IMG/VR virus record: IMGVR_UViG_2654587728_000014
Coordinates: 5,853 to 69,852 of that record
DNA length: 64,000 nucleotides
DNA from: a virus
Taxonomy: Duplodnaviria > Heunggongvirae > Uroviricota > Caudoviricetes
Reading direction: 5' to 3' (one strand)
Positions 1 through 23,368 of this stretch are shown piece by piece (the stretch's first letter is position 1; every line of letters starts with the position of its first letter). The notes under the pieces were generated by a model. The model was not told the origin of the DNA. It worked only from the letters and a program-made list of their open reading frames with translations, and did not search any database. Made by a program: the position numbers and the translations under genes.

Positions 1-1
1 C

Positions 2-196
2 GGGATCGGTATGTCTTTTGATGCAATCAGAGGGGCTTTTTATGATGCAGGAACACGATCTGCGAGAATGCCGAATAACACAACTGATATAGGCAAAACC
101 GATGACCTTGGATTCGACGCCTCTCGTGTCGTGCCAACAGCTAATGAAAACCGTCCACGTAACATCGCCTTTAATTATATTGTGAGGGCTGCATAA
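2..196 (+). CDS. tail-fibre protein, C-terminal fragment (5' part lies upstream of the window)
   Basis: Frame is open from position 2; ends RPRNIAFNYIVRAA, the same C-terminal signature as the fibres at 38035-39489 and 1714-2220; immediately followed by a tfa gene. Confidence 0.6.
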   Translation, partial: GIGMSFDAIRGAFYDAGTRSARMPNNTTDIGKTDDLGFDASRVVPTANENRPRNIAFNYIVRAA

Positions 197-789
197 TGAA
201 ACCTGTTTTTGATGAAAATGGGCTGGCTACAGTGCCGGGTGATATGCGTTGTTATTATTATGATGCAGTAACGTCTGAATATACGGGCTGGTCTGATGAA
301 TATATTAATACTGGCGTAAGTATGCCCGTTTGTTCCACTGGTATTGACCCGGGCGAATACATTCCGGGAAGAGTGGCAGTATTTACGGGTAAGGGATGGA
401 GCCATGAAGAAGACCATCGCAATGAGACCGTTTACTCAACTGAAAATGGCGCAGCTGTTACAGTGGATTATATCGGTGCCATCAAAGACGGTTATGTCAC
501 GCTTTCACCGTTAACGCCATACGATAAATGGGATGGTGAGAAATGGGTGACGGATACCGAGGCACAGCATAGCGCCGCAGTAGAAGCTGCAGAAGCACAG
601 CGCCAGTCGCTGATTGATGCTGCAATGGCTTCCATCAGTCTGATTCAACTGAAATTACAGGCCGGGCGGAAGCTGACGCAGCCAGAAAACACCCGACTTA
701 ACGCTGTGCTGGATTATATTGACGCGGTGACGGCAACAGATACCAGCACAGCGCCGGACGTCATCTGGCCTGAACTGCCGGAGGCGTAG
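196..789 (+). CDS. tail-fibre assembly chaperone (Tfa / Mu U / P2 G family)
   Basis: 197 aa; conserved ETVYSTENG, KWVTDTE and LNAVLDYID blocks shared with the homologue at 39496-40110; start overlaps upstream fibre stop. Confidence 0.8.
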   Translation: MKPVFDENGLATVPGDMRCYYYDAVTSEYTGWSDEYINTGVSMPVCSTGIDPGEYIPGRVAVFTGKGWSHEEDHRNETVYSTENGAAVTVDYIGAIKDGYVTLSPLTPYDKWDGEKWVTDTEAQHSAAVEAAEAQRQSLIDAAMASISLIQLKLQAGRKLTQPENTRLNAVLDYIDAVTATDTSTAPDVIWPELPEA

Positions 790-1204
790 GCCATTCAATA
801 TCTGGCGCACCGGAAGTATCGACCAGTTCCAGTGCGTCCAGATAATCCAGCCACAAATTATATTGCGCCAGTTCCTCACCTTTCAGGCGACCAATCGCCG
901 CTTTACCAGGCCATTGCTTACTGTATATGTATTCGTTGACCTGATTAATCAATTGCTGCTTTTCCAGTTCGGCTGCAGCAATTTGTTCCTCATGAGTTGG
1001 CGGTGGAATTTCCCCCCAGGTGGGAAGGCCATCATCACCCGCGATGCGTACTTTCCCTTGCAACGTTCTGTCTTCAATAAATTCCAGGTAAGTGTCATAT
1101 GTCACTTCGACAACATCAGCAAGTTCCCATCCGGCCTGTTCATATTTCGCCACATCATTTTTAGCGAAAAAACTATTTTTTGAGGCGCTATAAACCATTT
1201 CCAT
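761..1204 (-). CDS. tail-fibre assembly chaperone, inverted copy (U'-like)
   Basis: 147 aa with LWLDYLDALELVDTSGAPDIEWP tail typical of Tfa C-termini; convergent with and overlapping the 196-789 gene by 29 bp. Confidence 0.75.
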   Translation of the reverse strand: MEMVYSASKNSFFAKNDVAKYEQAGWELADVVEVTYDTYLEFIEDRTLQGKVRIAGDDGLPTWGEIPPPTHEEQIAAAELEKQQLINQVNEYIYSKQWPGKAAIGRLKGEELAQYNLWLDYLDALELVDTSGAPDIEWPTPPAVQAR

Positions 1205-1205
1205 A

Positions 1206-1724
1206 TTAATACCCTACTGCAATATAAAAAACTGATTCACCAGCGTCCTGAGAACCTACCCCCGGAACGCCAGACCAGGTTTTGTTAATGAATGCAAAAC
1301 TGGTATTACTCAGATCAGATGCTCTGTACATCGGGCTGAACATCCAGTAGTTGGCTCCATATGTTTGTCCGAAAACAATGCCATAGCACTGATTTGTAAA
1401 TGGCGTAGAAAATAATTTTCCACCAGTACCAGCGATAGTCCCGAATCGCATCTGGAACCCATTCGGGAAATTAATTCCGCCTGCCGGTGAAGACCAGTAA
1501 GACATATCAGGTATTTGCCCAGCACTATTTCCCACGTTTTTTGTTGCAACGGTTCCTAACCCAAGATTAGCTCTTGCGTCAGATTTATTTGTTAACTCAT
1601 AAAGATTATTTGCCTTTTGAAGTGCTCCTATTATGCGTAAATCATCACCAGCGGCAACGGTTCCGACTGTCGTGCCCACATCCCTTTTCGCCGCTTCTCC
1701 TAAACCAACGTTTCTATGCCGCCC
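1206..1724 (-). CDS. alternative tail-fibre C-terminal cassette (Sv'-like), probably promoterless
   Basis: ORF 1206-1679 stays open upstream to a stop at 1725-1727; the extension encodes NVGLGE across the motif at 1695-1720; Gly/Thr/Asn-rich receptor-binding-like sequence. Confidence 0.5.
   Translation of the reverse strand, partial: GRHRNVGLGEAAKRDVGTTVGTVAAGDDLRIIGALQKANNLYELTNKSDARANLGLGTVATKNVGNSAGQIPDMSYWSSPAGGINFPNGFQMRFGTIAGTGGKLFSTPFTNQCYGIVFGQTYGANYWMFSPMYRASDLSNTSFAFINKTWSGVPGVGSQDAGESVFYIAVGY
1695..1720. other. candidate gix/hix-like crossover site 1
   Basis: TTCTCCTAAACCAACGTTTCTATGCC; half-site TTCTCCTAAACC plus AA core resembles hixL TTCTTGAAAACCAAGG (from memory); encodes the LGLGE junction. 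Confidence 0.35.
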
Positions 1725-2220
1725 TTACGATGTAATTAAACGCAATGTTACGGGGACGAATGGTCACATAATTAACCCCATCGCCTCGCGAAGGACCTGC
1801 AAATGAAAAACGGGAGAATCCAGGTTGGTTGTCAAGGATTTGGTCATAGTTATTGATTGAATGACCAGACCCAATGTCAAAATTACCTGCGTAATGAGAA
1901 AAACTTGTACCATCCTGCCGTGAAAGCAGATCGCGCCCTGTATCCACTTTTCGCCCGTCGTCCCATCCACGGATAAACTCACCGCGCAAATCGGGAAGAC
2001 GGAGGGTCGGGTAGACTCTGGCCAGAACAGGATATTGTTCTTTTGTAAAGGCGCGCCCGTCGCACTTTAACCAGCCTGCTGGCGGTGTGGCAGTGGGCCA
2101 CGGAACAGGTACACCAACGGGCAGCGCCGAGCCTTCCCCCAAACCAACGTTTTCGTTTTTATCCCTACCTATACCAACTCTGTATTTTTCACGAAACAAA
2201 GAGGATGTTTTTTTATGCAA
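1714..2220 (-). CDS. alternative tail-fibre C-terminal cassette 2 (Sv''-like)
   Basis: Encodes NVGLGEGSALPVGVPVPWPTATPPAGWLKCDGRAFTKEQYPVLARVYPTLRLPDLRGEFIRGWDDGRKVDTGR and ends RPRNIAFNYIVRAA; nearly identical over ~200 bp to the H gene at 40425-40625; track start is a TTG so the real unit probably begins at the motif near 2134. Confidence 0.55.
   Translation of the reverse strand: MHKKTSSLFREKYRVGIGRDKNENVGLGEGSALPVGVPVPWPTATPPAGWLKCDGRAFTKEQYPVLARVYPTLRLPDLRGEFIRGWDDGRKVDTGRDLLSRQDGTSFSHYAGNFDIGSGHSINNYDQILDNQPGFSRFSFAGPSRGDGVNYVTIRPRNIAFNYIVRAA
2134..2159. other. candidate gix/hix-like crossover site 2
   Basis: TTCCCCCAAACCAACGTTTTCGTTTT about 55 bp upstream of the invertase start; partial dyad AAACC-AA-CGTTT. 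Confidence 0.4.
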
Positions 2221-2814
2221 ATTGGCTATATTCGTGTGTCAACAAATGACCAGAACACGGATTTACAACGCAATGCACTGAACTGCGCAGGATGTGAACT
2301 GATTTTTGAAGATAAAATCAGCGGAACGAAATCAGCCAGACCGGGATTGAAAAAACTGCTCAGAACGCTATCAGAAGGAGATACGCTGGTTGTCTGGAAG
2401 CTGGACAGACTGGGCAGAAGTATGAAACACCTGATCACGCTTATTGAGGAATTGCGGGAAAAAGGTGTTAATTTCCGTAGTCTGACGGACAGCATTGACA
2501 CATCAACACCCATGGGGCGTTTCTTTTTTCACGTCATGGGGGCTTTAGCCGAAATGGAACGTGAATTAATTGTAGAGCGTACACTGGCCGGGCTGGCAGC
2601 AGCACGCGCACAAGGACGCATTGGCGGACGTCGCCCGAAGTTGACAAAAGAACAACACGAGCAAATAGCGAGGCTGATTAAAAACGGTCATGACAGGAAA
2701 CAACTGGCGATCATTTACGACATCGGCATATCGACGATTTATCGTTATCACCCTGTAGGCGATATACAGGCTGAAGAAACAACCAGGCAGACTCAGGAAA
2801 ATAAAAACCGCTAA
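2215..2814 (+). CDS. gin: DNA invertase, serine recombinase (Gin/Hin/Pin/Cin family)
   Basis: 199 aa; MQIGYIRVSTNDQNTDLQRNAL, VVWKLDRLGRSMKHLI and MGRFFFHVMGALAEMERELIVERT match the Mu Gin sequence as I remember it, including the catalytic Ser region and C-terminal HTH. Confidence 0.9.
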   Translation: MQIGYIRVSTNDQNTDLQRNALNCAGCELIFEDKISGTKSARPGLKKLLRTLSEGDTLVVWKLDRLGRSMKHLITLIEELREKGVNFRSLTDSIDTSTPMGRFFFHVMGALAEMERELIVERTLAGLAAARAQGRIGGRRPKLTKEQHEQIARLIKNGHDRKQLAIIYDIGISTIYRYHPVGDIQAEETTRQTQENKNR

Positions 2815-2833
2815 TCTGACCATTAGCGGTTTT
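2804..2833. terminator. bidirectional intrinsic terminator hairpin between invertase and gpU
   Basis: AAAACCGCTAAT-CTGACC-ATTAGCGGTTTT perfect stem with A and T runs on both sides, overlapping the invertase stop. Confidence 0.45.
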
Positions 2834-2840
2834 GCGTTAA

Positions 2841-3335
2841 TCAAAACAGCCCTTTAACGGAGCTGGCCGCGCTGTTAAGGGATGATGTGACCTTATCTTT
2901 GAAGCCGGACAGCATATCACTGAACGATGAGGATTGCAGGCGCTCCCGCAAATCCTCATCACAGCGTTCAAGAGTCAGTGAAAATTCTATCTTTTTCGCC
3001 TTACCGTAGCGATCAAACTCGGAACGGGTCGTATTCGTTTCAGTCAGTACATACATGCCGTAAATCTGCCCGACACCATCAATCAGAGGCCAGGGGCGTC
3101 CTGTATATGCCTGCGTGGTCAGCAACGAAAGCGACACTTCGCCACCTGTAATTTCAGGATAAAGCACGCCGGAAAGCACGATGCGATCATCACCTGCGCC
3201 GATATACTGCCAGCTTGCTGAACGGTTAACGCGTTCATTTTTCACATGCCGCCAGCTTTTGTTTTGCTGTAACTGCTGATGCGGCAATGTGCGCAGCTCA
3301 AAAACAAACATGCCGTAGATCATCATCATGGCCAT
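2841..3335 (-). CDS. phage tail protein, P2 gpU-like
   Basis: 164 aa starting MAMMMIYGMFVFEL with GVLYPEITGG and WPLIDGVGQIYGMYV, matching the P2 gpU pattern as remembered. Confidence 0.75.
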   Translation of the reverse strand: MAMMMIYGMFVFELRTLPHQQLQQNKSWRHVKNERVNRSASWQYIGAGDDRIVLSGVLYPEITGGEVSLSLLTTQAYTGRPWPLIDGVGQIYGMYVLTETNTTRSEFDRYGKAKKIEFSLTLERCDEDLRERLQSSSFSDMLSGFKDKVTSSLNSAASSVKGLF

Positions 3336-3341
3336 GACTCC

Positions 3342-4757
3342 TCAATCTTTATCGTAAAAACTGCCACGCCCGGCACGGGCGCGCCGTTCCATTTCTGCCC
3401 TGACCATTTCGCCAATCAGTTTCGCCAGTTCGCGGGGATTCTGTGTAACAACGTTATGCAGATGAACATGAATTTCACCGCCAAATCCGGAGGCAACAGG
3501 CTCCCGGTTACGGGAAGTTGCAGGAACTGATGCCACTGGCGATCGTATAGCCTCCGCCACCGGGCGGGAGCTGGCCGCAACAACAGGGACCAGCGCCGGA
3601 GGCAGCGGAGCCGGAACCACGGGTGTGATAGTAATTGCGGGGGCAGGCTTACTGACCTGCGCAATCTTCCGCTCCTGCCACTCCCCACGAACAGCAAGTG
3701 CGCGGGGCAGGTTCTTAAAGACAATATCGCCGGGGCCAATGCGTTTTTTCGTCTCATCAACCAGCTTACCTGTGTTATCAGCAATTTTGCTGAGTCTGCG
3801 TAGCGTACCGGTATTGTTGTCTGTGAGCGGTTTGTTGTCTCTGGGTTTATCGCCTTTTTTGTCGTCGACCTTATCTGACGGGGCCGGGCCGGGAGTCCAT
3901 GGTTTCTGAACCATTTTCTTGAGAACCGGATCCCATTCCCACATTACAGGAGCCTTTGAAGCGTTCTCTATTTTCTTTCTCGCCCGTTCCGCTTCATCCG
4001 GAAGCACTCCGAGCTTTTCAAGTATCCACGCCAGTGAATCCATCAATGCTTTTGTTGGCGTCAGGACAAGCTCTATCGCTCCACCGAGTACCCTGCCGAA
4101 TACCTCGCCAGCACTGGTACATTTATCCAGCGTTTCCTTGCTGGACTCCATCGGTGACAGCAGCGATTTAAACCAGTTAAAGACCTGAATAATCCCATCG
4201 CGCACGACATCAAAAACTGGACCGAACCGTTCAAAGGTTTCGCGCAACGGAGCCAGCCGTTCCATAATCCCACTGAACACCCCTGCATAAAACGCCTTGA
4301 TGGGTTCCCAGTATTTCCAGATGAGAACCGCCGCAGCCACAAACGCAGCAGCAATCAATCCGACCGGGCTGAACAGCGCCCCGATAGCGCCCCCCAGTAA
4401 CGAAACGGAACCCGTCACCATTCCCCATAGTGCTGGCAGGAGCCTGACAGCATTCATTGATCCGGTCAGGAGGGAAAAGCCAAGACGCAGTTTTGCCAGC
4501 GGGCCAGCAAGCACACCAATAGCCAACGACAACGAGCCGACCGTTGCAGTCATCGCCAGCAATGCCCCACCTGCAATCAGTAGCTGGCGCGTCAGTGCCG
4601 GATGGGCCTGCGCCAGCGCCGTCACCTTTGATACCACCCGCGTGAGCCACTGCGTGACAGAACGCAGCGGACCGTCAATCAGATCTGCAATGCGGATGCG
4701 CAACCCTTCCCATGCACTGCCGAGTGATTTCAGATCGCCGTCAAGGTTGTTGGCCAT
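3342..4757 (-). CDS. tail tape-measure protein, C-terminal part only (5'-truncated, likely pseudogene)
   Basis: 471 aa with Gly/Ala-rich TM-like stretches and a C-terminal proline-rich region; about half the length of P2 gpT; frame stays open upstream only to ~4895 where unrelated sequence begins. Confidence 0.6.
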   Translation of the reverse strand: MANNLDGDLKSLGSAWEGLRIRIADLIDGPLRSVTQWLTRVVSKVTALAQAHPALTRQLLIAGGALLAMTATVGSLSLAIGVLAGPLAKLRLGFSLLTGSMNAVRLLPALWGMVTGSVSLLGGAIGALFSPVGLIAAAFVAAAVLIWKYWEPIKAFYAGVFSGIMERLAPLRETFERFGPVFDVVRDGIIQVFNWFKSLLSPMESSKETLDKCTSAGEVFGRVLGGAIELVLTPTKALMDSLAWILEKLGVLPDEAERARKKIENASKAPVMWEWDPVLKKMVQKPWTPGPAPSDKVDDKKGDKPRDNKPLTDNNTGTLRRLSKIADNTGKLVDETKKRIGPGDIVFKNLPRALAVRGEWQERKIAQVSKPAPAITITPVVPAPLPPALVPVVAASSRPVAEAIRSPVASVPATSRNREPVASGFGGEIHVHLHNVVTQNPRELAKLIGEMVRAEMERRARAGRGSFYDKD

Positions 4758-4831
4758 AACCTTTGCTGTGCGTTCAGCCTCACCGCGCGCGCCTTCAAGT
4801 TCTTTTCTCAGTTTGGGTAAGGAGCCGTCAC

Positions 4832-4906
<75 letters not shown>

Positions 4907-4907
4907 T

Positions 4908-4964
<57 letters not shown>

Positions 4965-4993
4965 CAGAACTCGCGCCAGCCTGATTGCAGATA

Positions 4994-5383
4994 TTACTCT
5001 TTTTTCTCCGTATCTGCATCGGGTTCATCAGCAAATAGCTTGCCCTGCATCCGATCCAGTTCTTCTTTTCTTACCCGCTTAACCACGCTGTAGACCCACT
5101 GAAGCGAAACACCAAATTTGCGGGCCAGTTCGTGGTGGTTGCGTCCGTTAAACTCCCTGAAGATTTCCCGGTCGCGCTGACTGACCTTCCATACCATGCC
5201 CATCGGGAAATAAACGTTTTGCCCGCCCCAGACCTGCATCATTCGGTTCGCGACGGCCTGACCAATCTGGTCGGCAACTTCGGGCTCAATATCAATAATC
5301 TCGCGAACGGTCTCAGAGGTATGCTGTGCCAGTTCCACCAGGAGTTCCGGCCCCTTACTTCGAAACTGATTCAGGTCGCTCAT
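4994..5383 (-). CDS. Mor/C-family transcriptional activator
   Basis: 129 aa; C-terminal FNGRNHHELARKFGVSLQWVYSVVKR resembles the Mor HTH region (Mu Mor FNGRN...YG...VY..I.R); acidic tail. Confidence 0.65.
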   Translation of the reverse strand: MSDLNQFRSKGPELLVELAQHTSETVREIIDIEPEVADQIGQAVANRMMQVWGGQNVYFPMGMVWKVSQRDREIFREFNGRNHHELARKFGVSLQWVYSVVKRVRKEELDRMQGKLFADEPDADTEKKE

Positions 5384-5804
5384 GTTTGACTCCCGCAGCT
5401 CTGCGCTGCCACTTCTTCAGTTTCTCAATAACACTGCTTGCCTGTTCAGTACTGAGCCAGCGCAGGGCGCTGATGCCCGTTTCCCGCTTGATCCACCTCG
5501 CTAATGCATTTTCTGAACGGTCACGAACAATGCCGGCAGCAGCCATTTCAAGCCATAGCGCACGAATTTTCCTGGACTGCGGATGGTTATCCAGCGGTAA
5601 ACCGGAGCTGGCTTTTCTGGCTGGTTTAACGCGAAAGCCTTTCTTTTTCATGGATTCCAGCACGCAGTTTAGTTGTGTGGTATCCATTCCTTTGGTTGAG
5701 GCTTTACCGGTCAGCCCCTGTAACATCTGGCGGTAGGTGTCTTCATCCATACCCAGTTCATTACGGGCAATATGGATAAGCTGTATCAGGCGTTTTTTCT
5801 GCAT
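5355..5804 (-). CDS. GemA-like protein (Mu gp16 / DUF1018 family)
   Basis: 149 aa; LIQLIHIARNELGMDEDTYRQMLQ and KIRALWLEMAAAGIVRD blocks, position just upstream of Mor as in Mu. Confidence 0.5.
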   Translation of the reverse strand: MQKKRLIQLIHIARNELGMDEDTYRQMLQGLTGKASTKGMDTTQLNCVLESMKKKGFRVKPARKASSGLPLDNHPQSRKIRALWLEMAAAGIVRDRSENALARWIKRETGISALRWLSTEQASSVIEKLKKWQRRAAGVKHERPESVSK

Positions 5805-5805
5805 A

Positions 5806-6168
5806 TCATCTCCTTTTTTTCAGTCTGTCGGCAACAATGTCGGTTGCAGCTGGCAGGGTGACTGGCCAGAACAACATGACGGCGGTCATGTACAGGATGT
5901 AATGCGCGGTGTCGTAGTGCCTGCCATAGCCCAGGGAACGATGAAGTCTTGCGCTGCATGATCCTGCGTACATATACCAGAAAAGAAAACAGACAATGGT
6001 TTCAGTAGTCATTCTGAATACCTCCCCATTCGATATGAATATTACGGGCAGCAATGACAGGGTCGTTATTCCACCATGCACCTGACATGTATTTTTCAAC
6101 CTGTTCGCGTCCGGCAATAACACCAATTGTGATCCCCGGCCTGACGTTCTTAAAAAAGGCGCGGGCAA
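5806..6168 (-). CDS. small hypothetical membrane protein (probable start near 6012)
   Basis: Hydrophobic segments CFLFWYMYAG and ILYMTAVMLFWPVTL; abuts the GemA-like stop. Confidence 0.3.
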   Translation of the reverse strand: MPAPFLRTSGRGSQLVLLPDANRLKNTCQVHGGITTLSLLPVIFISNGEVFRMTTETIVCFLFWYMYAGSCSARLHRSLGYGRHYDTAHYILYMTAVMLFWPVTLPAATDIVADRLKKRR

Positions 6169-6232
6169 AAAGGTATCTGGCAGATATTCGGCAGGCTTTT
6201 AATTTCCGGCTTTTACCTGATAGCGTAATCAT
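6002..6232 (-). CDS. hypothetical protein
   Basis: 76-aa ORF in the early-operon strand between flanking genes; no recognisable motif. Confidence 0.25.
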   Translation of the reverse strand: MITLSGKSRKLKACRISARYLFARAFFKNVRPGITIGVIAGREQVEKYMSGAWWNNDPVIAARNIHIEWGGIQNDY

Positions 6233-6948
6233 CTGGCCTCCAGTTTCTGTTGTTCCTGCCCACTGACCGGGCGGTGCAGTCTGACGTTCTGCCCTTCACG
6301 AAACCCCGCATAGCGCGAGGCGTCGCCATTGCGGCTTCTTCCCGGTTTACGCGCCCTGGTGGTTTGCGTCTGCGGGTATTTATGTTCCAGCCACTGCTGC
6401 ATCAGTTCACGCTCATCATCGGTCAGGGCAAAGGACTGTATTTCACTGATAACGGCCAGCACCCAGCCTTCGGCAAACTGGTCTCCACGGCTGGTGCGGG
6501 TGGCGGTTTTTATTCTTTTGTTCTGTGCACTGATATACTGCTGACGCGCCTTTTTCAGCTGACGGGCCAGCACTTCCCAGGTGTATGCAGCCAGTGCCGC
6601 ACGTTCCCGGTTGCCGTAGAACCCCACAGACGGATGCGTGCCGGGGTGAATGATGGAGTTAACACCAAATACCTCGCGGATGATGTTCATCAGGCCCAGC
6701 ATGTAGCGCGGTGGACGGAGACTGCCTGTCGGCCAGTAGTGACTGATGGTTTCATCAATATCACTCATAGCAATGTCGGAATGTGTGATGCCGTGAACAT
6801 CCATCAGTTTACGGGCTCGGCACAGTGCCAGAGCGGCCTCGTGCGGGTTGCCGGATGCGGCCAGCGCCAGCAACTTTTTCAGTTTCTCAATGTGTTTATT
6901 CTGGTCTGTCATTGTTCTGTATCTCCGGTATTTTTCTGCCGTTTCCAT
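6229..6948 (-). CDS. DUF2786-like protein
   Basis: 239 aa; N-terminal KLKKLLALAASGNPHEAALALCRARKLM motif typical of the DUF2786 family as I recall. Confidence 0.45.
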   Translation of the reverse strand: METAEKYRRYRTMTDQNKHIEKLKKLLALAASGNPHEAALALCRARKLMDVHGITHSDIAMSDIDETISHYWPTGSLRPPRYMLGLMNIIREVFGVNSIIHPGTHPSVGFYGNRERAALAAYTWEVLARQLKKARQQYISAQNKRIKTATRTSRGDQFAEGWVLAVISEIQSFALTDDERELMQQWLEHKYPQTQTTRARKPGRSRNGDASRYAGFREGQNVRLHRPVSGQEQQKLEAR

Positions 6949-7124
6949 GCCCGGACAGCGTCGGACAGCTCTTTCAGGCTGTATGCTGCTTTAAGCTTTT
7001 CCCATAACCACTGTGTTGTTATGTGCATCAGCAGGGCAGCCAGGGCTGCCCCCGCACTGAGGCATGTCGCCAGGCCAGTAAGAATCAGTATCCATGCGGT
7101 GATTTCCCTGAGTATGTCAGCCAT
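6909..7124 (-). CDS. small membrane protein
   Basis: 71 aa with one clear TM helix WILILTGLATCLSAGAALAALLM. Confidence 0.35.
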   Translation of the reverse strand: MADILREITAWILILTGLATCLSAGAALAALLMHITTQWLWEKLKAAYSLKELSDAVRAWKRQKNTGDTEQ

Positions 7125-7138
7125 TGAATGCCTCCCGG

Positions 7139-7435
7139 TTACTCGTTCGTGTAAATCACGCCCAGTCGTGCAGCCAGACGTTCCAGTTTTTTCTGTTTGT
7201 GGAAGTCAATCAGCCGGTCCATCCCCTGAAGGCGCAATTGCTCTGTCATGATTTCCACGTCTGCCAGCTCTGCCGCGAGGTCGCTTTCGCTGCCCTGTCC
7301 GTTCAGATTGCGGGCAGCACTGGCCGCCAGTTCAGCGGCCTCTTCTGTCAGTTTCAGGGCCTGTGCGTCCGGCCCGAAACGCTGCAGGGCCAGACGGTAG
7401 AGGGCGGTGCGGGTGAGTATGGTGTTCCGTGTCAT
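7139..7435 (-). CDS. hypothetical protein, possible MazG-like all-alpha fold
   Basis: 98 aa; LTEEAAELAASAA and ELADVEIM motifs resemble MazG/HisE-type helices; weak. Confidence 0.3.
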   Translation of the reverse strand: MTRNTILTRTALYRLALQRFGPDAQALKLTEEAAELAASAARNLNGQGSESDLAAELADVEIMTEQLRLQGMDRLIDFHKQKKLERLAARLGVIYTNE

Positions 7436-7444
7436 GCCGCGCCC

Positions 7445-7717
7445 TCAGTGCTTCCGGCTGACGGTGATGTGCAGGCCGCCTTCTGCAGTGGTTTCCATCC
7501 GGTACGGCACCTCATGCGCTGCCGTGTGGGTTAGTGTGTTCACCAGTACCTGCAGGGCAGCCGCCTTTCCGTTGGTCGCCACAATGGCTTGAGCGGTCAT
7601 GCTGATTAGCGCCGTCAGGACGTGCTTCACATCGGTGAGGTCGCGGCATTCACACTCGTTGACATAGTGTTCAACAAGGGTTCGGGTGCGCTGTCGTGCT
7701 TCCTGTGGGGTAATCAT
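7445..7717 (-). CDS. hypothetical protein
   Basis: 90-aa ORF tightly packed in the minus-strand operon. Confidence 0.35.
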   Translation of the reverse strand: MITPQEARQRTRTLVEHYVNECECRDLTDVKHVLTALISMTAQAIVATNGKAAALQVLVNTLTHTAAHEVPYRMETTAEGGLHITVSRKH

Positions 7718-7908
7718 TGCGAGTCCTCCCTGTCAGGGCGGGAGAATTCCATGACGGGCACGTCTGCCGAAAAATGCTGGCTGCAGTACGGGCAGACCAG
7801 GGTGACGCGTACCGCAGGGATGTGGTATTTACCGGACATCACGGCGATGGCGCTGTGAAAACGCAGGGCTGTTATATCCCTCTCGCACTGAATACATTTA
7901 AATATCAT
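7714..7908 (-). CDS. small Cys4 zinc-ribbon-like protein
   Basis: 64 aa with CIQC...CPYC spacing typical of a zinc ribbon. Confidence 0.35.
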   Translation of the reverse strand: MIFKCIQCERDITALRFHSAIAVMSGKYHIPAVRVTLVCPYCSQHFSADVPVMEFSRPDREDSQ

Positions 7909-8005
7909 GATTTAATTCTCCTCTGTTTCCGGCGTGCAGAAGCCCGCGGCGCTGACGTCGGAATAAAAAAGAAAATGTTTTTATTAAATAATTAACGTGG
8001 TGTGT

Positions 8006-8536
8006 TTACTGCACATCCTGCTCAAAAGGAATTATTGAAAAATCCTCAATGTCGCTTTTAATGGAAATACCGGGAATATTTTTCACGGCCTCTTTTTCAT
8101 TCAGGATAGCGTCTTTATTTATTTCCTCTTTTACACGAATAAAGCGCTCAAGCCCCAGACGTCTCAGCAGTTCAATGACATTATCCGCCCCGCGAATGCT
8201 GACTGACGGCGGACGGTTTCGCCACTGCACCTCGCCGGTGGTGAGGTTAGCGAACTTCACCTTCCCGTTGCCGGTCAGTTCATCACGGTGCGCCTCACAC
8301 CATGTCTGGATACCGGACTGCAGTTCGGCCATGCGTTTTTTCAGGCTCTCGGTGAGCGGGGCATAACGTGCAGTGATGTCGCCAATGGTGTCATTCATTT
8401 CTGTTTCAGCCCTGACCAGTTCACGTTGCGCGTCACCAAGCAGTCTGATTCCCTCAATGACCTCTTCGCGTGTCCCCGGCACCCAGAGTGCTGCTGCGGC
8501 TTTGATACGTTTTGCCCCTTTTGTACTTTTTGCCAT
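8006..8536 (-). CDS. gam: host-nuclease inhibitor protein Gam (Mu Gam family)
   Basis: 176 aa; MAKSTKGAKRIKAAAA, ELTGNGKVKFANLTTGEVQWRNRPPSVSIRG and GISIKSDIEDFSIIPFEQ match Mu Gam closely as remembered. Confidence 0.85.
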   Translation of the reverse strand: MAKSTKGAKRIKAAAALWVPGTREEVIEGIRLLGDAQRELVRAETEMNDTIGDITARYAPLTESLKKRMAELQSGIQTWCEAHRDELTGNGKVKFANLTTGEVQWRNRPPSVSIRGADNVIELLRRLGLERFIRVKEEINKDAILNEKEAVKNIPGISIKSDIEDFSIIPFEQDVQ

Positions 8537-8563
8537 ATTTTATGACTCCTCCTGTTGTGCTGA

Positions 8564-8833
8564 TTACCACAAAGATTCCGGCCACACGACGCGACAGCCG
8601 TGCAGTTCGAAAACGCCCTGACGGAAATGTCCCCTGTGGTCATGACCGGTATACAGATAACAGGCCTTTCCCTGCTCAAGCATGCGCATGCAATGCGCAC
8701 TCCGGGAAACGCGGATGACAGGTTTGTTACCCCTGATGGTGATGCTTTGTACATCCGTGTTCGTCGCCTTAAGCGCCATAATGGCTGACTGCACTTTGCT
8801 GATTTGCTGGTTGATACCTGTGGTGGATTTCAT
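8564..8833 (-). CDS. hypothetical protein (kil position between B and gam)
   Basis: 89-aa ORF. Confidence 0.4.
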   Translation of the reverse strand: MKSTTGINQQISKVQSAIMALKATNTDVQSITIRGNKPVIRVSRSAHCMRMLEQGKACYLYTGHDHRGHFRQGVFELHGCRVVWPESLW

Positions 8834-8835
8834 TA

Positions 8836-10041
8836 TTAAACCCCTTTGACAACGTCAGCGTTGACCTGTGGAACCCCGATTTCAGCGGCCAGATTCATGG
8901 CGGCTATTACCAGGTTACTGACGGCCAGCGGATACAGCAGGCTGACCATATTTTTACGATGACTTCCCGGATTGCTCAGGCGGGCACGTATGGCATCCAC
9001 TGCGCTGGCGTCCATAATGTCCGTCAGTTGTTTACCGGCCCGTTGCAGTTTGAACGTCAGAAACTCTTCAAGGTTATTGTCCAGAGGCAGAAGTTCGACC
9101 ACCTCACAGCGCTGAACGACTTCACGGACTTCCATATTGCGTTCAGACAGTTTTGTCGCCAGTTCCGGCTGGCCAATCAGCACGATGGACAGCAGTTTTT
9201 TGAAACCGGACTCCAGCTCAAAAAAGCGTTTGAGGTGTTTCAGTGTCGGAATGGGCAGACTGTGGGCCTCCTCAATCACCAGAACGTGGCTGAACCCCGC
9301 CTGGCTGCTGTCTTTCAGGACGCGATGCAACTGGCGAAAGCGGGCGTCCTGACTGCGTCTGATGCTTTCCAGTGGTGCGATGGTACTGATAATGGCTTCG
9401 GCAATCGCTGCTGCCTTCAGGGTTTTCCCTTTCACATCGTTGTCTTCCATAGCGATGATGTATGGCTCGATAACAATTACCGGCGCATTCTCGCGGTTGA
9501 TACGTTCAGTCAGGTCGCGGCGCAGCGTGGATTTACCCGCACCGGACTCACCGATGACGGCCATAAACCCACCATGACGGGCTGTCTGGTACAACGCCTC
9601 ACGCACGTAGCGAATATCCGGGGTGGTGAACACATCATCAGAACCCTGCATGGCTTCGTCGGCGAACGGGTCACGGAAAAGACCAAACGCTTTTTTGGTT
9701 GCTGGAAATAACACCTGTTTTTTGAGTAACATATTCTCTTCCTCACTGAGGCTCGTTTTATCTGTGGTACCCGCTGTACGGGGCGTGGCCGCGCCCTGTA
9801 CAGCATCAAAACTCTTCGTTGTATCAATCCCCTGACTTTCCAGCCAGGACGCAAGACGCCGGCGCACTTCTCCGGGGCTGGTGCGGGGCCACGCGTTATG
9901 ATTCACAATCTGGGCCAGCGTGGCCTCAGAAACATCGACAGCTCTCGCCACCACCGCCTGTGGAATACGGGCCTCTTTCAGTTGCTGCTTCAGTACCAGC
10001 ATGTTTCCCTCCTCAGTTGCCGTTAACAATGCTGATAACAC
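8836..10041 (-). CDS. Mu-type transposition protein B (AAA+ ATPase)
   Basis: 401 aa; N-terminal HTH-like region, Walker A VIGESGAGKST, directly downstream of and overlapping the transposase. Confidence 0.8.
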   Translation of the reverse strand: MLSALLTATEEGNMLVLKQQLKEARIPQAVVARAVDVSEATLAQIVNHNAWPRTSPGEVRRRLASWLESQGIDTTKSFDAVQGAATPRTAGTTDKTSLSEEENMLLKKQVLFPATKKAFGLFRDPFADEAMQGSDDVFTTPDIRYVREALYQTARHGGFMAVIGESGAGKSTLRRDLTERINRENAPVIVIEPYIIAMEDNDVKGKTLKAAAIAEAIISTIAPLESIRRSQDARFRQLHRVLKDSSQAGFSHVLVIEEAHSLPIPTLKHLKRFFELESGFKKLLSIVLIGQPELATKLSERNMEVREVVQRCEVVELLPLDNNLEEFLTFKLQRAGKQLTDIMDASAVDAIRARLSNPGSHRKNMVSLLYPLAVSNLVIAAMNLAAEIGVPQVNADVVKGV

Positions 10042-11782
10042 TGCTGCGGGCCGGTGTGGTCAGCGTGGCCATGACTTCATCCAGTGCGGCTTCCGGTACG
10101 CCGTCCGGGTACTGTGCCGTTAACTGGCGGTAATGTTCCGGCGTCCAGGTAAGGCCGTCGGCGCTGAACTTATCGCGCAGGGCTTTCGCGGCCTCCACAT
10201 GAGTCATGGGACGTTGTTCAGTGCGCGGCCCGCGTACGTCAGAGGCCTGACCACGCTTCGGCATATAGGCCGGAAGTGTGGTGTCGTCGATATGTTTATA
10301 CGGGTCAAGCCGCCCGCCGAACGGCAGCGCCTTCGCCTTGCGTGCGGCGGCTGCATCTGCGGCGTTGTCTGTACCGGTAACCAGCGCTTCGGTTTCTTTT
10401 GCCGCCATCTGTGCCGGGGTTTCCGGCAGGGCTTTGTAACTTTCGCCAAATACCGCCGCGCCTTCAGCAAAGCCAAACTCGTTCTTTCTGACCTCTTCGA
10501 CCAGGAAGAACGTCTCGTGGCCGTCCTCACCGGTCAGAACCACCTGTGCCACATCGCTGCGCCATGGGTTACGGGTAATCATCAGTTTTTCACCAACCAG
10601 TACGCCCGGTACCGTTGATACGTCAAATTCAGTGCCCCGGAACGAGACACGAAGTTTTGGCGTGACTTTGCGGAGTTCTGGTGCCGCCACAGCCAGTTCA
10701 CGACATACCTCAACGGAAGGCGCTTTTTTCAGCTGCTCAGCAGTAATCTTCAGCCAGATATCCGTGCGGGTTTTACCGTGGCGGCTGTGAACAGCCGTGG
10801 CGTTAAAGTGGCTGCGCCATTTCGCGGCCAGCGCGTTGAGTTCTTCCAGACTGTGAACCGGCCGGAACTTCAGACCCGGCTCCAGCTTGCGTTCGATAAT
10901 GTCACGCGCCTTTTCCACCTGTCCGGTGGCGCGGGCGTTATGCGGCTTGTGCGCTATCAGGTCGATGCCCAGTGAGCGGCACATGTTTTTCGTCATACCC
11001 GCGGTGTTTGCCGAGCCGGGGTCGAGATAGAGTATTTTCGGCACGCCGTGCAGCACGTCTGCGCCGCCACGCTCCTGCATGGCGTTGATAAGCACAGAAC
11101 ACAGGTTCTCACCTGATTCCGCGCCCGTCACATACTCAACGTAAATCCAGCCGCTGGCATGGTCGGTAATCTCGTAACTCCACACGCGGTCACTGGCGAT
11201 ACGGGCAAGGTTAGCGGGCTTGTTCTTGTAGAACTTCGCGCTGTCCATCACCTGCAGCCCTTTATGTCCATTGCTCAGGTAGTAAAGCGTGCAGAGTGAG
11301 GCGTCAATCTGCCAGACATGATTGGGATGCAGACTGGCCACTTCGGTATGTGGTGCAGGGGCATCCAGTTGTTCCGGGTGCAGGCCATAGTTACGCAGAG
11401 CACGGCTGATGGCATCTTCAGACAACGGGAAAAACTCACTGGTGGTTTCATCTGTTCTGCCTGCGGTGATAAAGCCGTTAGCCCGCAGGGTTTCCACTGC
11501 ATCTGCGATGGAATAGAGACGCTTACCGTTCTTGCGGGTGGCCTCACGCAGTGTGGCAGATATCAGCGCGGCTTCGTCGCGGGTCAGGGCGCTGCGCCCG
11601 GCATCGGCGCGTTTTTTGCGTTTATCAGTCACAGATACCTCCTTCAGCCTGCGCAGCAGAGTGGCGCGGGACATGCCAAGTTCAGCACAGGCAGCGTCGT
11701 ATATTGCACCGCGTTTACCATGCCCCGCGTCACGTGCCGCGCGGGCTGTTTCAACCAGTTTTTCAGTCAGTGCCGGGGTCAT
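10013..11782 (-). CDS. Mu-family DDE transposase (A protein)
   Basis: 589 aa; N-terminal DNA-binding region, then catalytic core with VWQIDAS, LYLDPGSANT and QVEKARDIIE consistent with a DDE triad. Confidence 0.85.
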   Translation of the reverse strand: MTPALTEKLVETARAARDAGHGKRGAIYDAACAELGMSRATLLRRLKEVSVTDKRKKRADAGRSALTRDEAALISATLREATRKNGKRLYSIADAVETLRANGFITAGRTDETTSEFFPLSEDAISRALRNYGLHPEQLDAPAPHTEVASLHPNHVWQIDASLCTLYYLSNGHKGLQVMDSAKFYKNKPANLARIASDRVWSYEITDHASGWIYVEYVTGAESGENLCSVLINAMQERGGADVLHGVPKILYLDPGSANTAGMTKNMCRSLGIDLIAHKPHNARATGQVEKARDIIERKLEPGLKFRPVHSLEELNALAAKWRSHFNATAVHSRHGKTRTDIWLKITAEQLKKAPSVEVCRELAVAAPELRKVTPKLRVSFRGTEFDVSTVPGVLVGEKLMITRNPWRSDVAQVVLTGEDGHETFFLVEEVRKNEFGFAEGAAVFGESYKALPETPAQMAAKETEALVTGTDNAADAAAARKAKALPFGGRLDPYKHIDDTTLPAYMPKRGQASDVRGPRTEQRPMTHVEAAKALRDKFSADGLTWTPEHYRQLTAQYPDGVPEAALDEVMATLTTPARSSVISIVNGN

Positions 11783-11797
11783 AGCTTGTCTTCCCTG

Positions 11798-12115
11798 TTA
11801 TCCGATTCTGGCGGCAATTTTTCTGGCGAGGTCGCACAGTGTTTCGCCATCGCAGGTTTTCACCACGGTATTTACCGGTTGCGGTGCAACTACCGGGCGT
11901 AATGCTGACTGATTCTGCAGACGTCTTATCTGCTGCATCAGCATCACCTCCATCGTCAGTACAAACGGGTGCGTCTCCTGTGCGGGTACGCAGATTTCAC
12001 CGGAAGGGGTCACCACGCGGAAACCCTGCACCATCTCCGGCAGCAGATTACACAGTGCGTGCCCCAGTGCCTCCGGGCTGTCCATCAGGGTATTTTGTGT
12101 GTTATTCGTATTCAT
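11798..12115 (-). CDS. hypothetical protein
   Basis: 105-aa ORF immediately upstream of the transposase. Confidence 0.4.
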   Translation of the reverse strand: MNTNNTQNTLMDSPEALGHALCNLLPEMVQGFRVVTPSGEICVPAQETHPFVLTMEVMLMQQIRRLQNQSALRPVVAPQPVNTVVKTCDGETLCDLARKIAARIG

Positions 12116-13035: not shown

Positions 13036-13045
13036 TGATTACTCC

Positions 13046-13360
13046 TTACAAACGACTACCTGAAATGACACGTTGGTTAATTTCGTTAATACGATCCTGT
13101 GCACGTGCCATCTCGTTACTGTGGGCCATGGCGATCTGCAGTAACTGGATGCCCGGTGCAAAACGTCCGTTCTCCAGTTTCAGAGCCAGCCCTTCTTCAA
13201 TGAGGGTGTTGAGTGCCCGGTTGATGTTTGCCGGTGACTCGTGCAGTGCTGTCGCCAGTTCACCGTTAGAAATACCGTTCAGGGCATGACCGCGCAGCGC
13301 TTTGAGTACCCGGAGGATGCGACTGCCGGAGCTTGAAACATTCGTCTTACTCATCTGCAT
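13046..13360 (-). CDS. putative winged-helix DNA-binding protein
   Basis: 104 aa; GISNGELATALHESPANINRALNTLIEEGLA looks like a winged HTH. Confidence 0.4.
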   Translation of the reverse strand: MQMSKTNVSSSGSRILRVLKALRGHALNGISNGELATALHESPANINRALNTLIEEGLALKLENGRFAPGIQLLQIAMAHSNEMARAQDRINEINQRVISGSRL

Positions 13361-13406
13361 ACCTCTTTTGCGATATGTGATAACCTTTTACAAAGACTCA
13401 AAATAT

Positions 13407-13595: not shown

Positions 13596-13688
13596 CGTTG
13601 TCTCCTTTGTTGATGCAATGATGTTTGCCTTATATGTGTTAGATTATTGCTCATAATTATGAGCATATCAAGATAGAGATTCACTTTT

Positions 13689-14045: not shown

Positions 14046-14130
14046 TACTGACCCGGACACAAAGGACAGGTGGTTGATCTGGATGCTTTCAGAAAACATC
14101 GCCAGTGACATAGTGGAAGTTGTTTGGTTT

Positions 14131-14160: not shown

Positions 14161-14161
14161 T

Positions 14162-16920: not shown

Positions 16921-16922
16921 TC

Positions 16923-23366: not shown

Positions 23367-23368
23367 CA

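What the first reader, a model, noticed from the sequence alone, without database searches (positions are those of the whole stretch)
1..2833. Multi-cassette tail-fibre inversion region with more than two candidate crossover sites
Besides the expected convergent tfa pair there are two tandem promoterless fibre C-terminal cassettes on the minus strand (1206-1724 and 1714-2159). Each begins in frame at a TTCYCCYAAACCAA-type motif (1695-1720, 2134-2159) encoding the same LGLGE junction. The invertase gene starts about 55 bp from site 2. Several cassettes with several sites suggests a shufflon-like multiple-inversion system rather than a simple two-state switch. The fibre constant part and the partner site lie upstream of the window.
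Basis: partly seen in the sequence, partly recalled or inferred. Interest (0 to 1): 0.6.

Follow-up and report, generated by a model that had tools for sequence, protein, structure and literature searches.

The report
Stranded phage tail-fibre cassette store
This is a known kind of phage switch, in which a DNA-flipping enzyme swaps the tips of tail fibres, caught in an unusual state: two nested prophages share five flip sites, and a flip of about 37 kb has cut these spare tips off from both fibre genes.

Summary
Window 1-2833 carries a convergent tfa pair, two intact in-frame fibre C-terminal cassettes on the minus strand (B 1206-1706, C 1714-2145), two 26-bp pix-type crossover sites (1695-1720, 2134-2159) and an intact Gin/Pin-family serine invertase 55 nt from site 2.

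The source contig (GCA_001267345.1, 100% identical) shows no fibre constant part upstream. Upstream lie a third inverted site, a second invertase gene, the right end of a Mu-like prophage, and the N-terminal half of a P2-like tape-measure gene. That half lies in the opposite orientation to its C-terminal half at 3342-4831.

The two constant parts are inside the window. They face each other at 38035-39036 and 40640-41759, each with its own site.

A BcepMu/EC958-Phi2-type phage transposed into gene T of a P88-type P2-like prophage. At least one inversion of about 37-39 kb between sites of the two phages then stranded cassettes A, B and C between the two invertase genes.

Three-site, four-state fibre switches of this same family are already proven experimentally in E. 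coli E2348/69 (PMC4272514). The kind is therefore known. The two-phage, five-site, two-invertase state is an unusual instance resting on one draft assembly.

The parts
1..196 (+). 3' end of silent fibre cassette A (collar type). The cassette starts about 268 nt upstream of the window, at site 0.
   Evidence: One search gives the translation ...RPRNIAFNYIVRAA*. Searches show the upstream part with GLGE at -268. It is 100% identical to the tip of the full-length fibre in L004.
196..789 (+). tfaA, tail-fibre assembly chaperone for collar-type tips
   Evidence: Caudo_TAP, E 3.7e-27. phrog_105, E 3e-83.
761..1204 (-). tfaB, chaperone paired with cassette B
   Evidence: Caudo_TAP, E 4e-30. phrog_188, E 8e-57.
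1206..1706 (-). Silent fibre cassette B (gp53-like tip, 166 aa from GLGE)
   Evidence: The frame is open. phrog_1396 tail fibre, E 4.6e-27. It is 100% identical to the tip fused to the 544-aa fibre in L009 and L010.
1695..1720 (+). Crossover site 1: TTCTCCTAAACC-AA-CGTTTCTATGCC. The outer half contains the stop codon of C.
   Evidence: The homology breakpoint is confined to 1694-1713.
1714..2145 (-). Silent fibre cassette C (collar domain, 143 aa from GLGE, with no tfa gene of its own)
   Evidence: Collar PF07484, E 7e-16. phrog_523, E 5e-62. Copies 98-99% identical lie next to the invertase gene in Mu-like (L016, L003), P2-like (L017) and P1-like (L002) elements. In L019 it is fused to a constant part.
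2134..2159 (+). Crossover site 2: TTCCCCCAAACC-AA-CGTTTTCGTTTT. The outer half belongs to the inv199 side.
2215..2814 (+). inv199, the serine DNA invertase of the P2-like prophage
   Evidence: Resolvase plus HTH_7. Match to Gin 4m6f at E 3e-91. 82% identical to PinE and 85.6% to inv190.
2804..2833 (.). Perfect 12-bp hairpin between inv199 and gpU, terminator-like
   Evidence: (I11).
2841..3335 (-). P2-like tail gene U
   Evidence: Phage_P2_GpU, E 5.5e-39.
3342..4831 (-). C-terminal part of P2-like tape-measure gene T (nt 1325-2814 of the intact gene). The N-terminal part lies upstream of the window on the opposite strand.
   Evidence: 100% identical to T of L004. The 6-bp overlap GTGACG is the target-site duplication.
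4832..39036 (+). Body of the transposable Mu-like (BcepMu / EC958-Phi2-type) prophage, from its left end (TGATTAGACTTGAGATAAATG) to the site in its fibre gene
   Evidence: Mor, GemA, rve transposase and AAA_22; Gam. Ends. The same left end abuts many different host genes in other genomes.
38035..39489 (+). Mu-like fibre gene: constant part fused to tip X, with no co-oriented tfa gene downstream
39011..39036 (-). Crossover site 3: TTCCCCCAAACC-AA-GGTAATTGAGGA. The outer half is the Mu-like constant part.
   Evidence: The outer half is identical to EC958 Phi2_5prime (PMC4134206).
39496..40110 (-). tfaY, chaperone
   Evidence: Caudo_TAP, E 5.6e-27. phrog_105.
40110..41759 (-). P2-like fibre gene H: constant part fused to tip Y
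   Evidence: Phage_tail_fib N-terminal domain, fibre repeats and Collar. Translation.
40614..40639 (+). Crossover site 4: TTCTCCTAAACC-AA-GGTAATCAAGAA. The outer half is the P2-like constant part.

Best explanation
Window 1-2833 is one end of a Pin/Gin-type tail-fibre cassette system that spans two nested prophages.

A P88/Xuanwuvirus-type P2-like prophage carries invertase inv199. A transposable BcepMu/EC958-Phi2-type prophage carries invertase inv190 and inserted into the P2-like tape-measure gene T. Together they hold five mutually compatible 26-bp crossover sites, each with 12-bp halves around an AA core. They also hold five fibre tips (A, B, C, X, Y), three chaperone genes and two constant parts.

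After the insertion, at least one inversion of about 37-39 kb occurred between a site on the P2-like side and the site in the Mu-like fibre gene. It flipped the block [inv199, U, T C-terminal part, Mu-like genome up to its fibre constant part].

In the isomer that was sequenced:
- The two constant parts face each other across a 1.6-kb segment. The P2 fibre is fused to Y with tfaY downstream. The Mu fibre is fused to X with no co-oriented chaperone gene.
- Cassettes A, tfaA, tfaB, B and C are stranded between the two outward-reading invertase genes, joined to no constant part.
- The Mu-like ends are in direct rather than inverted orientation, so that prophage is split.

Shown:
- the anatomy;
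- the breakpoints at the sites;
- the inverted target-site duplication;
- that both invertases are intact;
- alternative isomers of the same modules in other genomes.

Inferred:
- that an invertase made the large inversion;
- that the state is reversible;
- the order of events.
For: 1. Source and upstream sequence. L012 (GCA_001267345.1) is 100% identical to window 1-14757 and supplies 6.3 kb upstream. That stretch holds site 0, inv190, the Mu-like right end, the N-terminal part of T, E', E, FII, FI and D.

2. Split tape-measure gene. T nt 1-1330 lies on the plus strand upstream, and nt 1325-2814 lies on the minus strand at 4831-3342. The halves share a 6-bp duplication, GTGACG. Both Mu-like ends are TGAT...GATAAATG.

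3. Five sites. All five fit one scheme, with an invariant TTC.CC.AAACCAA.GT. The outer halves fall into five classes that follow their flank: Sc_P2, Sc_Mu, inv199, inv190 and the 3' end of C. The variable halves travel with the tips.

4. Breakpoints lie inside the sites. Window -273..1713 is 100% identical to the A/B segment of L004. Window 1694..3400 is 99.1% identical to [C, inv199, U, T] of L017. The overlap is the 20 nt of site 1. X is 100% and C 99% identical to copies elsewhere, with no chimeric collar regions.

5. Backbones. The P2-like backbone is 99.5-99.98% identical to L004 and L009. Sc_Mu-X-tfaY-Y is 99.3% identical to the copy in 165 complete genomes.

6. Invertases. Both are intact. 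They are 74% identical to Gin and 75-82% to PinE, and each starts 54-55 nt from a site.

7. Isomers of the same modules in other assemblies. L004 versus L009 and L010 show the A and B states. L016 versus L019 show Sc-Y with silent C against Sc-C. E2348/69 (L020) carries Sc-C.

8. Experiments on relatives. Four variants coexist in E2348/69 (PMC4272514). Inversion of EC958 Phi2, which has the same outer half-sites, was seen with PacBio reads (PMC4134206). An invertase of one prophage can act in trans on another prophage (PMC12529663).

9. Number of states. A search over allowed inversions gives 64 reachable isomers, 32 of them with the Mu-like prophage split. In all three starting arrangements I considered, exactly one large inversion is needed.
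Against: - The whole arrangement rests on one draft assembly. An independent Logan contig confirms only the T/Mu junction through inv199, and it breaks inside the collar region of C.
- No complete E. coli genome has the same Mu-in-T junction or a Sc_Mu...Sc_P2 face-to-face segment.
- No reads were available to show coexisting isomers, or that the large inversion reverses.
- The Fis enhancer was not identified.
- The ancestral cassette content of each phage cannot be resolved. The three scenarios need 1, 2 or 4 inversions.
- Whether inversion works over 37 kb is assumed, not measured.
Confidence: 0.8

Rival explanations
1. This is an ordinary single-phage three-site switch, with the fibre constant part and left site just upstream of the window. 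Cassettes A, B and C are alternately fused to that constant part.
For: This architecture exists in relatives. The P1-like plasmid pF719-4 has Sc-A tfaA | tfa' B2' < C' < invertase. E2348/69 has a proven three-site switch. It is also one of the 64 isomers reachable here, one inversion away (scenario III).
Against: The 100%-identical source contig shows site 0 followed by invertase inv190, a Mu-like end and the N-terminal part of T upstream. There is no constant part.
Confidence: 0.03
2. Assembly artefact. The draft contig is a wrong or chimeric path through repeated collar regions and sites, or a consensus of a mixed population. The real chromosome has a contiguous Mu-like prophage.
For: The source is a short-read-style draft assembly. 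The collar region of about 217 bp occurs four times, and C and Y are about 96% identical in it. The Logan assembly of another run breaks in that repeat. No other genome shows the arrangement.
Against: Producing this order from a colinear state needs two coordinated wrong joins, each exactly at a 26-bp site that shares only 14-19 identical bases with the others. X and C match their relatives end to end, with no chimeric collars. The contig runs unbroken through all five sites.
Confidence: 0.1
3. RecA-dependent homologous recombination between inverted collar repeats of about 200 bp made the large inversion, not the invertase.
For: Inverted collar repeats 72-87% identical exist (A or X against C or Y).
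Against: The breakpoints map to the 20 nt of the site itself. The collar regions are not mosaic. The half-site classes re-sort exactly at the AA core.
Confidence: 0.05
4. Frozen relic. The inversion happened once and the system no longer switches. The cluster at 1-2159 is inert DNA in two dead prophages.
For: The P2-like prophage is already dead, because T is disrupted. The Mu-like prophage is split. Nothing reads into the cluster, and promoter-like sites are not enriched. There is no population data.
Against: Both invertase genes, all five sites and all five tips are intact. The tips are 99-100% identical to copies in elements that switch (PMC4272514; PMC4134206).
Confidence: 0.15

Closest known systems
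Three-site 'shufflon' in a P2-like prophage of EPEC E2348/69 (Goldberg et al. 2014, PMC4272514)
   Same: It is the same prophage family, with the order fibre, cassettes, 199-aa invertase, U, T. The site sequences match: TTCCCCCAAACCAA-GGTAATCAAGAA on the constant side and ...CGTTTTCGTTTT next to the invertase. A C-type tip is present, 85% identical overall and 93% in its distal part, and there it is fused to the constant part. The site spacing in L020 is 2.0 kb and 1.56 kb. Adding the collar repeat of about 217 bp gives about 2.2 and 1.8 kb, the sizes reported in the paper. The paper confirmed four variants by PCR.
   Different: That system has one phage, one invertase, three sites and one constant part. 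Here there are two phages, two invertases, five sites and two constant parts, and the cassette cluster is detached from both constant parts.
Min multiple-inversion system of plasmid p15B (Sandmeier et al. 1990, cited as ref. 34 in PMC5903667; details are from my own knowledge)
   Same: A serine invertase of the Din family acts on more than two crossover sites within overlapping segments that carry fibre 3' cassettes.
   Different: Min has six sites in a single 3.5-kb region of one P1-related element. No second invertase and no second fibre gene are involved. The p15B sequence was not compared here.
Pin/P segment of e14, Gin/G segment of Mu and Cin/C segment of P1 (two-site switches)
   Same: inv199 is 82% identical to PinE and 74% to Gin. 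The e14 pix sites TTCTCCCAAACCAACGTTTATGAAAA and TTCTCCCAAACCAAGGTTTTCGAGAG share the invariant core of all five sites. Both have the convergent layout tip-tfa | tfa-tip.
   Different: Those systems have two sites and two states.
EC958 (ST131) prophage Phi2 tail-fibre inversion (Forde et al. 2014, PMC4134206)
   Same: The Mu-like prophage here is of this type. Its outer half-sites are identical to Phi2_5prime and Phi2_3prime. Y, X and C are 99-100% identical to those of Phi2-type prophages such as L016.
   Different: In EC958 the module sits intact at the right end of the prophage, and a 2067-bp inversion was seen. Here the module is split between two places.
R64 shufflon (Rci, pilV)
   Same: It works in a similar way: several inverted sites shuffle the C-terminal ends of one gene.
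   Different: It uses a tyrosine recombinase, 19-bp sfx sites and a pilus adhesin. The window is not a member of this family.

Membership tests
Din (Hin/Gin/Cin/Pin) serine-invertase inversion systems | Small serine recombinase with an N-terminal catalytic domain, catalytic Ser9/10, and a C-terminal HTH | tested here: met
   Resolvase, E 1.5e-51, plus HTH_7. The motif is GYIRVSTNDQ. Match to Gin structures 4m6f and 3uj3 at E 3e-91. 74% identical to Gin and 82% to PinE. inv190 is likewise intact.
Din (Hin/Gin/Cin/Pin) serine-invertase inversion systems | 26-bp crossover sites made of two imperfectly symmetric 12-bp halves around a 2-bp core, with the same core in partner sites | tested here: met
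   All five sites read TTCYCCYAAACC-AA-SGT.... The e14 pix sites fit the same pattern. There are 4 matches in the window against 0.05 expected.
Din (Hin/Gin/Cin/Pin) serine-invertase inversion systems | Sites in inverted orientation that bracket segments switching the 3' part of a tail-fibre gene and its chaperone gene | tested here: met
   Sites 0 and 3 are inverted relative to sites 1, 2 and 4. Relatives are found in both orientations: L004 versus L009 and L010, and L016 versus L019.
Din (Hin/Gin/Cin/Pin) serine-invertase inversion systems | Fis-dependent recombinational enhancer inside the 5' part of the invertase gene | tested here: inconclusive
   A crude Fis-motif scan of inv199, inv190 and pinE found nothing, including in pinE, so the scan itself is uninformative. 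The 5' coding sequence is well conserved among the three.
Multiple-inversion fibre systems (p15B Min; E2348/69 P2-like three-site switch) | More than two compatible sites, so that overlapping inversions give more than two fibre C-termini | tested here: met
   There are five sites and five tips. An enumeration of allowed inversions gives 64 isomers. The three-site relatives L016, L017, L019, L020 and L002 are found in different states.
Multiple-inversion fibre systems (p15B Min; E2348/69 P2-like three-site switch) | Several isomers coexisting in a clonal population | not testable with these tools
   No reads of the source strain are available. This was shown for the E2348/69 homologue (PMC4272514).
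R64-type shufflon | Rci tyrosine recombinase and sfx repeats acting on pilV | tested here: not met
   Both recombinases are serine invertases. The target is a phage fibre gene.
Transposable Mu-like (BcepMu-type) prophage | DDE transposase plus a MuB-like ATPase, Mor, GemA and Gam, TG-terminal inverted ends, a short target duplication, and insertion at varied loci | tested here: met
   rve, AAA_22, Mor and GemA. Gam. The ends are TGAT...GATAAATG and the duplication is GTGACG. The left end abuts different genes in other genomes.
P2-like (P88/Xuanwuvirus-type) prophage | Gene order V W J I H tfa | tfa' tip' | invertase | U' T' E' E FII' FI' D | tested here: met
   The backbone is 99.5-99.98% identical to L004 and L009.

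The most novel reading that the evidence does not exclude
Two unrelated co-resident prophages, one P2-like and one BcepMu-like, work as a single recombination network with five sites and two invertases. Fibre tips pass from one phage type to the other by conservative site-specific exchange. That would explain why tips A, B and C, at 95-100% identity, sit in P2-like and Mu-like elements, and A and C also in a P1-like one. A reversible 37-39 kb inversion alternately splits and restores the Mu-like prophage. The window would be that exchange caught half-way.
Probability: 0.4. Interest if true: 0.55.

Novelty: new member of a known kind. Interest (0 to 1): 0.35.

Why it matters
The switch itself is textbook, and the three-site version is already proven in a close relative, so the finding as written adds little.

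The state of the locus is worth keeping. It gives direct sequence evidence that invertase sites of different prophage types in one chromosome recombine with each other. That is a concrete route by which identical receptor-binding tips and their chaperones spread between P2-, Mu- and P1-like phages.

It also shows that such cross-talk can break a prophage, and potentially rejoin it.

It is a practical warning for annotation and for assembly. A cluster of fibre tips with an invertase gene on each side and no constant part is not a decayed gene. Two full-length fibre genes facing each other can share one invertible segment.

Tried and rejected
- I looked for the same Mu-in-T junction and for a Sc_Mu...Sc_P2 face-to-face segment in 5,426 complete E. 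coli genomes. Neither exists, so no long-read assembly corroborates the arrangement.
- Exact-protein look-ups of the truncated T ORF, the C ORF and both fibre fusions found only GCA_001267345.1, plus one partial Logan contig.
- I tried to decide which phage originally owned which cassettes. The identities point both ways. The A/B segment is 100% identical to a P2-like relative and 98.8% to a Mu-like one. C next to inv199 is 99.1% identical to a P2-like relative, while Y, X and C are 99-100% identical to Mu-like relatives. Minimal inversion counts are 1, 2 or 4 depending on the assumed start. This is unresolved.
- A crude Fis-site scan for the enhancer gave nothing, even in pinE, so it says nothing either way.
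- The promoter scan of 1-3000 shows no enrichment, 4 sites against 4.4 expected.
- Pfam Gp53-like_C on cassette B falls below the curated cut-off (E 0.0096). I relied instead on PHROGs and on the fused isomers.
- I did not predict a structure for B. Its identity as a fibre tip is settled by the 100%-identical fused copies.
- The p15B paper could not be read. One script and two paper look-ups failed on technical grounds.


Full report
**1. The observation**

- A fibre C-terminus ends at 196 (...RPRNIAFNYIVRAA*).
- tfaA (196-789, +) and tfaB (761-1204, -) converge and overlap. Both are Caudo_TAP proteins.
- On the minus strand two frames are open from a shared motif to their stops. Cassette B (1206-1724) reads GRHRNVGLGEAAKRD...IAVGY*. 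Cassette C (1714-2166) reads RDKNENVGLGEGSALPVGVPVPW...RPRNIAFNYIVRAA*.
- C has a phage tail Collar domain (E 7e-16).
- B matches a PHROGs tail-fibre family at E 4.6e-27, and Pfam Gp53-like_C only weakly.
- The motif TTCYCCYAAACCAACGTTT occurs at 1695 and 2134. With up to three mismatches it occurs four times in the window against 0.05 expected.
- The invertase (2215-2814) has Resolvase and HTH_7 domains and the catalytic serine. It is 74% identical to Gin and 82% to PinE of e14. It starts 55 nt after site 2.

One detail differs. The silent cassettes encode NVGLGE. LGLGE is formed only once a cassette is joined to a constant part ending in ...YL.

**2.

The same scan found two more sites.
- One lies at 39011-39036 on the minus strand, inside a full-length fibre gene at 38035-39489 (+).
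- The other lies at 40614-40639 on the plus strand, inside another full-length fibre gene at 40110-41759 (-).
- Both encode YLGLGE at the junction between constant and variable parts.
- The first gene ends a Mu-like late operon with Baseplate_J and Tail_P2_I. The second is P2 gene H, with the Phage_tail_fib N-terminal domain, followed by I, J and so on.
- Only one chaperone gene (tfaY, 39496-40110, -) lies between them.

Right of the invertase come P2 gene U (2841-3335, -) and a 471-aa ORF that is the C-terminal half of a tape-measure protein. After these come Mor, GemA, a MuB-like ATPase and a DDE transposase, all on the minus strand.

**3. The sequence upstream of the window**

An exact-protein look-up with the truncated tape-measure ORF returned contig JHRJ01000008.1 of GCA_001267345.1 (L012). 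Its reverse complement is identical to window 1-14757 with no mismatch, and it supplies 6,283 nt upstream.

Going leftwards from window position 1, that stretch contains:
- the rest of cassette A, with GLGE at -268;
- a fifth site, site 0 (TTCTCCCAAACCAACGTTTATCTCTC, at -257 to -282 on the minus strand);
- a second intact invertase gene, inv190 (-337 to -909, minus strand, 54 nt from site 0, 85.6% identical to inv199);
- a Mu-type end;
- the N-terminal 456 codons of the tape-measure gene on the plus strand, then E', E, FII, FI and D.

There is no fibre constant part upstream. The cluster A-tfaA | tfaB-B <site 1< C <site 2< is bracketed by two invertase genes that read outwards.

**4. A prophage inside a prophage, then an inversion**

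I aligned an intact T gene from a nearly identical P2-like prophage (L004).
- T nt 1-1330 matches window -2317 to -988 on the plus strand.
- T nt 1325-2814 matches window 4831 to 3342 on the minus strand.
- The two halves share six bases, GTGACG, which is a target-site duplication.

The DNA abutting the two halves begins TGATGCGCCGCGCGATAAATG and TGATTAGACTTGAGATAAATG, which are Mu-like terminal repeats. In other E. coli genomes the same left end, next to Mor, abuts many unrelated host genes. The element is therefore a transposable phage with the BcepMu gene order. It matches the prophage called Phi2 in EC958 (PMC4134206), which a PHASTER-based ST131 preprint probably labels Burkho_phiE255 (Bcepmuvirus).

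The two halves of T and the two copies of the duplication are now in opposite orientation, and the two Mu-like ends are in direct orientation. The block [site 2, inv199, U, T C-terminal part, Mu-like genome up to its fibre constant part, site 3] is therefore inverted relative to both flanks. The flanks themselves are colinear with an intact P2-like prophage, at 99.5-99.98% identity to L004 and L009.

**5. The joints lie in the sites**

The homology breakpoints fall inside the sites.
- Window -273 to 1713 is 100% identical to the A/B segment of L004, and 98.8% to that of the Mu-like prophage L008.
- Window 1694 to 3400 is 99.1% identical to [C, site, inv199, U, T] of the P2-like prophage in strain 1434 (L017).
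- Window -987 to -256 is 99.9% identical to inv190 plus the right end in L008.
- The first two blocks overlap only in the 20 nt of site 1.

Across 27 sites from the window, seven relatives and e14, the pattern TTC.CC.AAACCAA.GT is invariant.
- The outer halves fall into classes fixed by what flanks them: the P2 constant part, the Mu constant part, the inv199 side, the inv190 side and the 3' end of C.
- The inner halves follow the tips.
- This is what exchange at the central AA predicts.

Tips X and C match their relatives end to end, at 100% and 99% identity. The collar repeats of about 217 bp are not mosaic, which argues against homologous recombination and against a misjoin within the repeats.

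**6. How many events, and who owned what**

I treated the five sites as boundaries and allowed only inversions between inverted sites. A breadth-first search then reaches 64 isomers. Half of them have the Mu-like prophage split, and either constant part can receive any of the five tips.

The observed order lies at different distances from different assumed starting states.
- One inversion from a state with P2 = A/B/C and Mu = X/Y (worked out by hand, not by the search).
- Two inversions from P2 = Y/X/C and Mu = A/B.
- Four inversions from P2 = A/B and Mu = Y/X/C.

Each of these routes contains exactly one large inversion. Database identities support each ownership in part, so the history is left open.

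**7. The family is known, and it switches**

The same tfaA protein occurs in canonical P2-like prophages in both orientations. L004, L005, L006 and L011 carry Sc-A, while L009 and L010 carry Sc-B. It also occurs in a Mu-like prophage with its own 190-aa invertase (L008).

Tip C, without a chaperone gene of its own, is the cassette nearest the invertase gene in three kinds of element: Mu-like (L016, L003), P2-like (L017) and a P1-like plasmid (L002). It is fused to the full-length fibre in strain S7 (L019), and a C-like tip is fused in E2348/69 (L020).

Three papers give experimental backing.
- Goldberg et al. 2014 (PMC4272514) showed that a P2-like prophage of E2348/69 has three inverted repeats and two overlapping inversions of about 2.2 and 1.8 kb. 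They found four variants coexisting in clonal cultures, confirmed by PCR, and three alternative C-termini, and called it a shufflon. The site spacing in L020 plus the collar repeat reproduces those sizes, so this is very probably that locus. That link is my inference.
- Forde et al. 2014 (PMC4134206) saw the Phi2 segment inverted in PacBio reads. The sites they list have the same outer halves as sites 3 and 0 here.
- Kirigo et al. 2025 (PMC12529663) showed that an invertase of one prophage can invert a segment in another.

p15B Min is the classical many-site precedent. I cite it from my own knowledge and from a reference list.

**8. Mechanism**

- Shown: two intact Din-family invertases and five compatible sites with a common core; joints at the sites; an inverted target duplication.
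- From established knowledge of Hin, Gin and Cin: the invertase dimers bound at two inverted sites, together with a Fis-bound enhancer in the invertase gene, form an invertasome. It exchanges strands at the 2-bp core and strongly favours inversion over deletion.
- Inferred: one of the invertases joined a P2-side site to the site in the Mu-like fibre gene across about 37-39 kb. The present isomer expresses Sc_P2-Y with tfaY, and Sc_Mu-X without a co-oriented chaperone gene. A, B and C are silent. A further inversion (sites 1, 2 or 0 with 3, or 0 with 4) would restore a contiguous Mu-like prophage and hand it a different tip.

**9. Caveats**

Everything beyond the T/Mu/inv199 junction rests on one draft contig. 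The independent Logan contig stops 72 nt into the collar region of C. No complete genome shows the same state. The enhancer was not found by my crude scan. I put the chance of an assembly artefact at about 10%.

**10. Verdict**

The idea of a multiple-inversion system is right in kind but already known for this very family.

The specific prediction of a constant part upstream is wrong. The region is a cassette store cut off from both fibre genes by an inter-prophage inversion. I score interest as moderate to low at 0.35, and class the finding as a new member of a known kind in an unusual, possibly transient, configuration.

Noticed in passing
L007 8691-10001 (GCA_048120985.1, DBFUUW010000014.1); compare L022 2410-3702 (K-12 ycjN): The chromosomal gene ycjN, which encodes a periplasmic sugar-binding protein, is fused in frame to fibre tip A exactly at the crossover site (...EGDPKNV|GLGEGSALP...). 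The result is a 436-aa ORF with SBP_bac_1 and Collar domains. Homology to the Mu-like locus L008 starts exactly at the site. K-12 ycjN carries a natural quasi-site there, CCGAAAAACGTCGGTTTCGTGG. This looks like invertase-mediated recombination with a chromosomal quasi-site that removed the body of the prophage.
   Followed up: partly
window 4832-39036, plus about 700 nt upstream of the window: A complete-looking transposable BcepMu / EC958-Phi2-type prophage is inserted in tape-measure gene T of a P2-like prophage, with a 6-bp duplication GTGACG. No complete E. coli genome shares this junction.
   Followed up: yes
window 38246-38861: The Mu-like fibre constant part contains three nearly identical tandem copies of a 56-aa (168-nt) Phage_fiber_2 unit (...SHTHPWSQITGVPAASLTAKGTVQLSSATDSQSETEAATPKAVKAAYDLAAGKAPV...). 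This is a likely source of length variation and of assembly trouble.
   Followed up: no
L019 4169-5040 (E. coli S7, NZ_CP107128.1): This Phi2-type prophage carries two tandem copies of tip C (97% and 99% identical). The first is fused to the constant part. That makes four sites and four cassettes in one module.
   Followed up: partly
window 53056-56051: Cargo region of the P2-like prophage between portal gene Q and replication gene A. It holds a ParM/StbA-type actin-like segregation protein (55092-56051, -) and a 187-aa ORF with no Pfam match (53056-53619, -).
   Followed up: no
window 14162-15016 and 15711-16439: The Mu-like prophage encodes a D12-class N6-adenine methyltransferase next to its repressor region. 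It also has a 242-aa minus-strand ORF with no Pfam match, lying between the early and late operons.
   Followed up: no
L017 2476-4889 (E. coli 1434): An IS66-family element is inserted in the silent X cassette of an otherwise similar three-site P2-like module. Silent tips can evidently be hit without affecting the fibre that is expressed.
   Followed up: no
window 2804-2833: A perfect 12-bp inverted repeat with a 6-nt loop lies between the convergent inv199 and gpU genes. It is followed by a T-run on the minus strand (the gpU side) and looks like a terminator.
   Followed up: no
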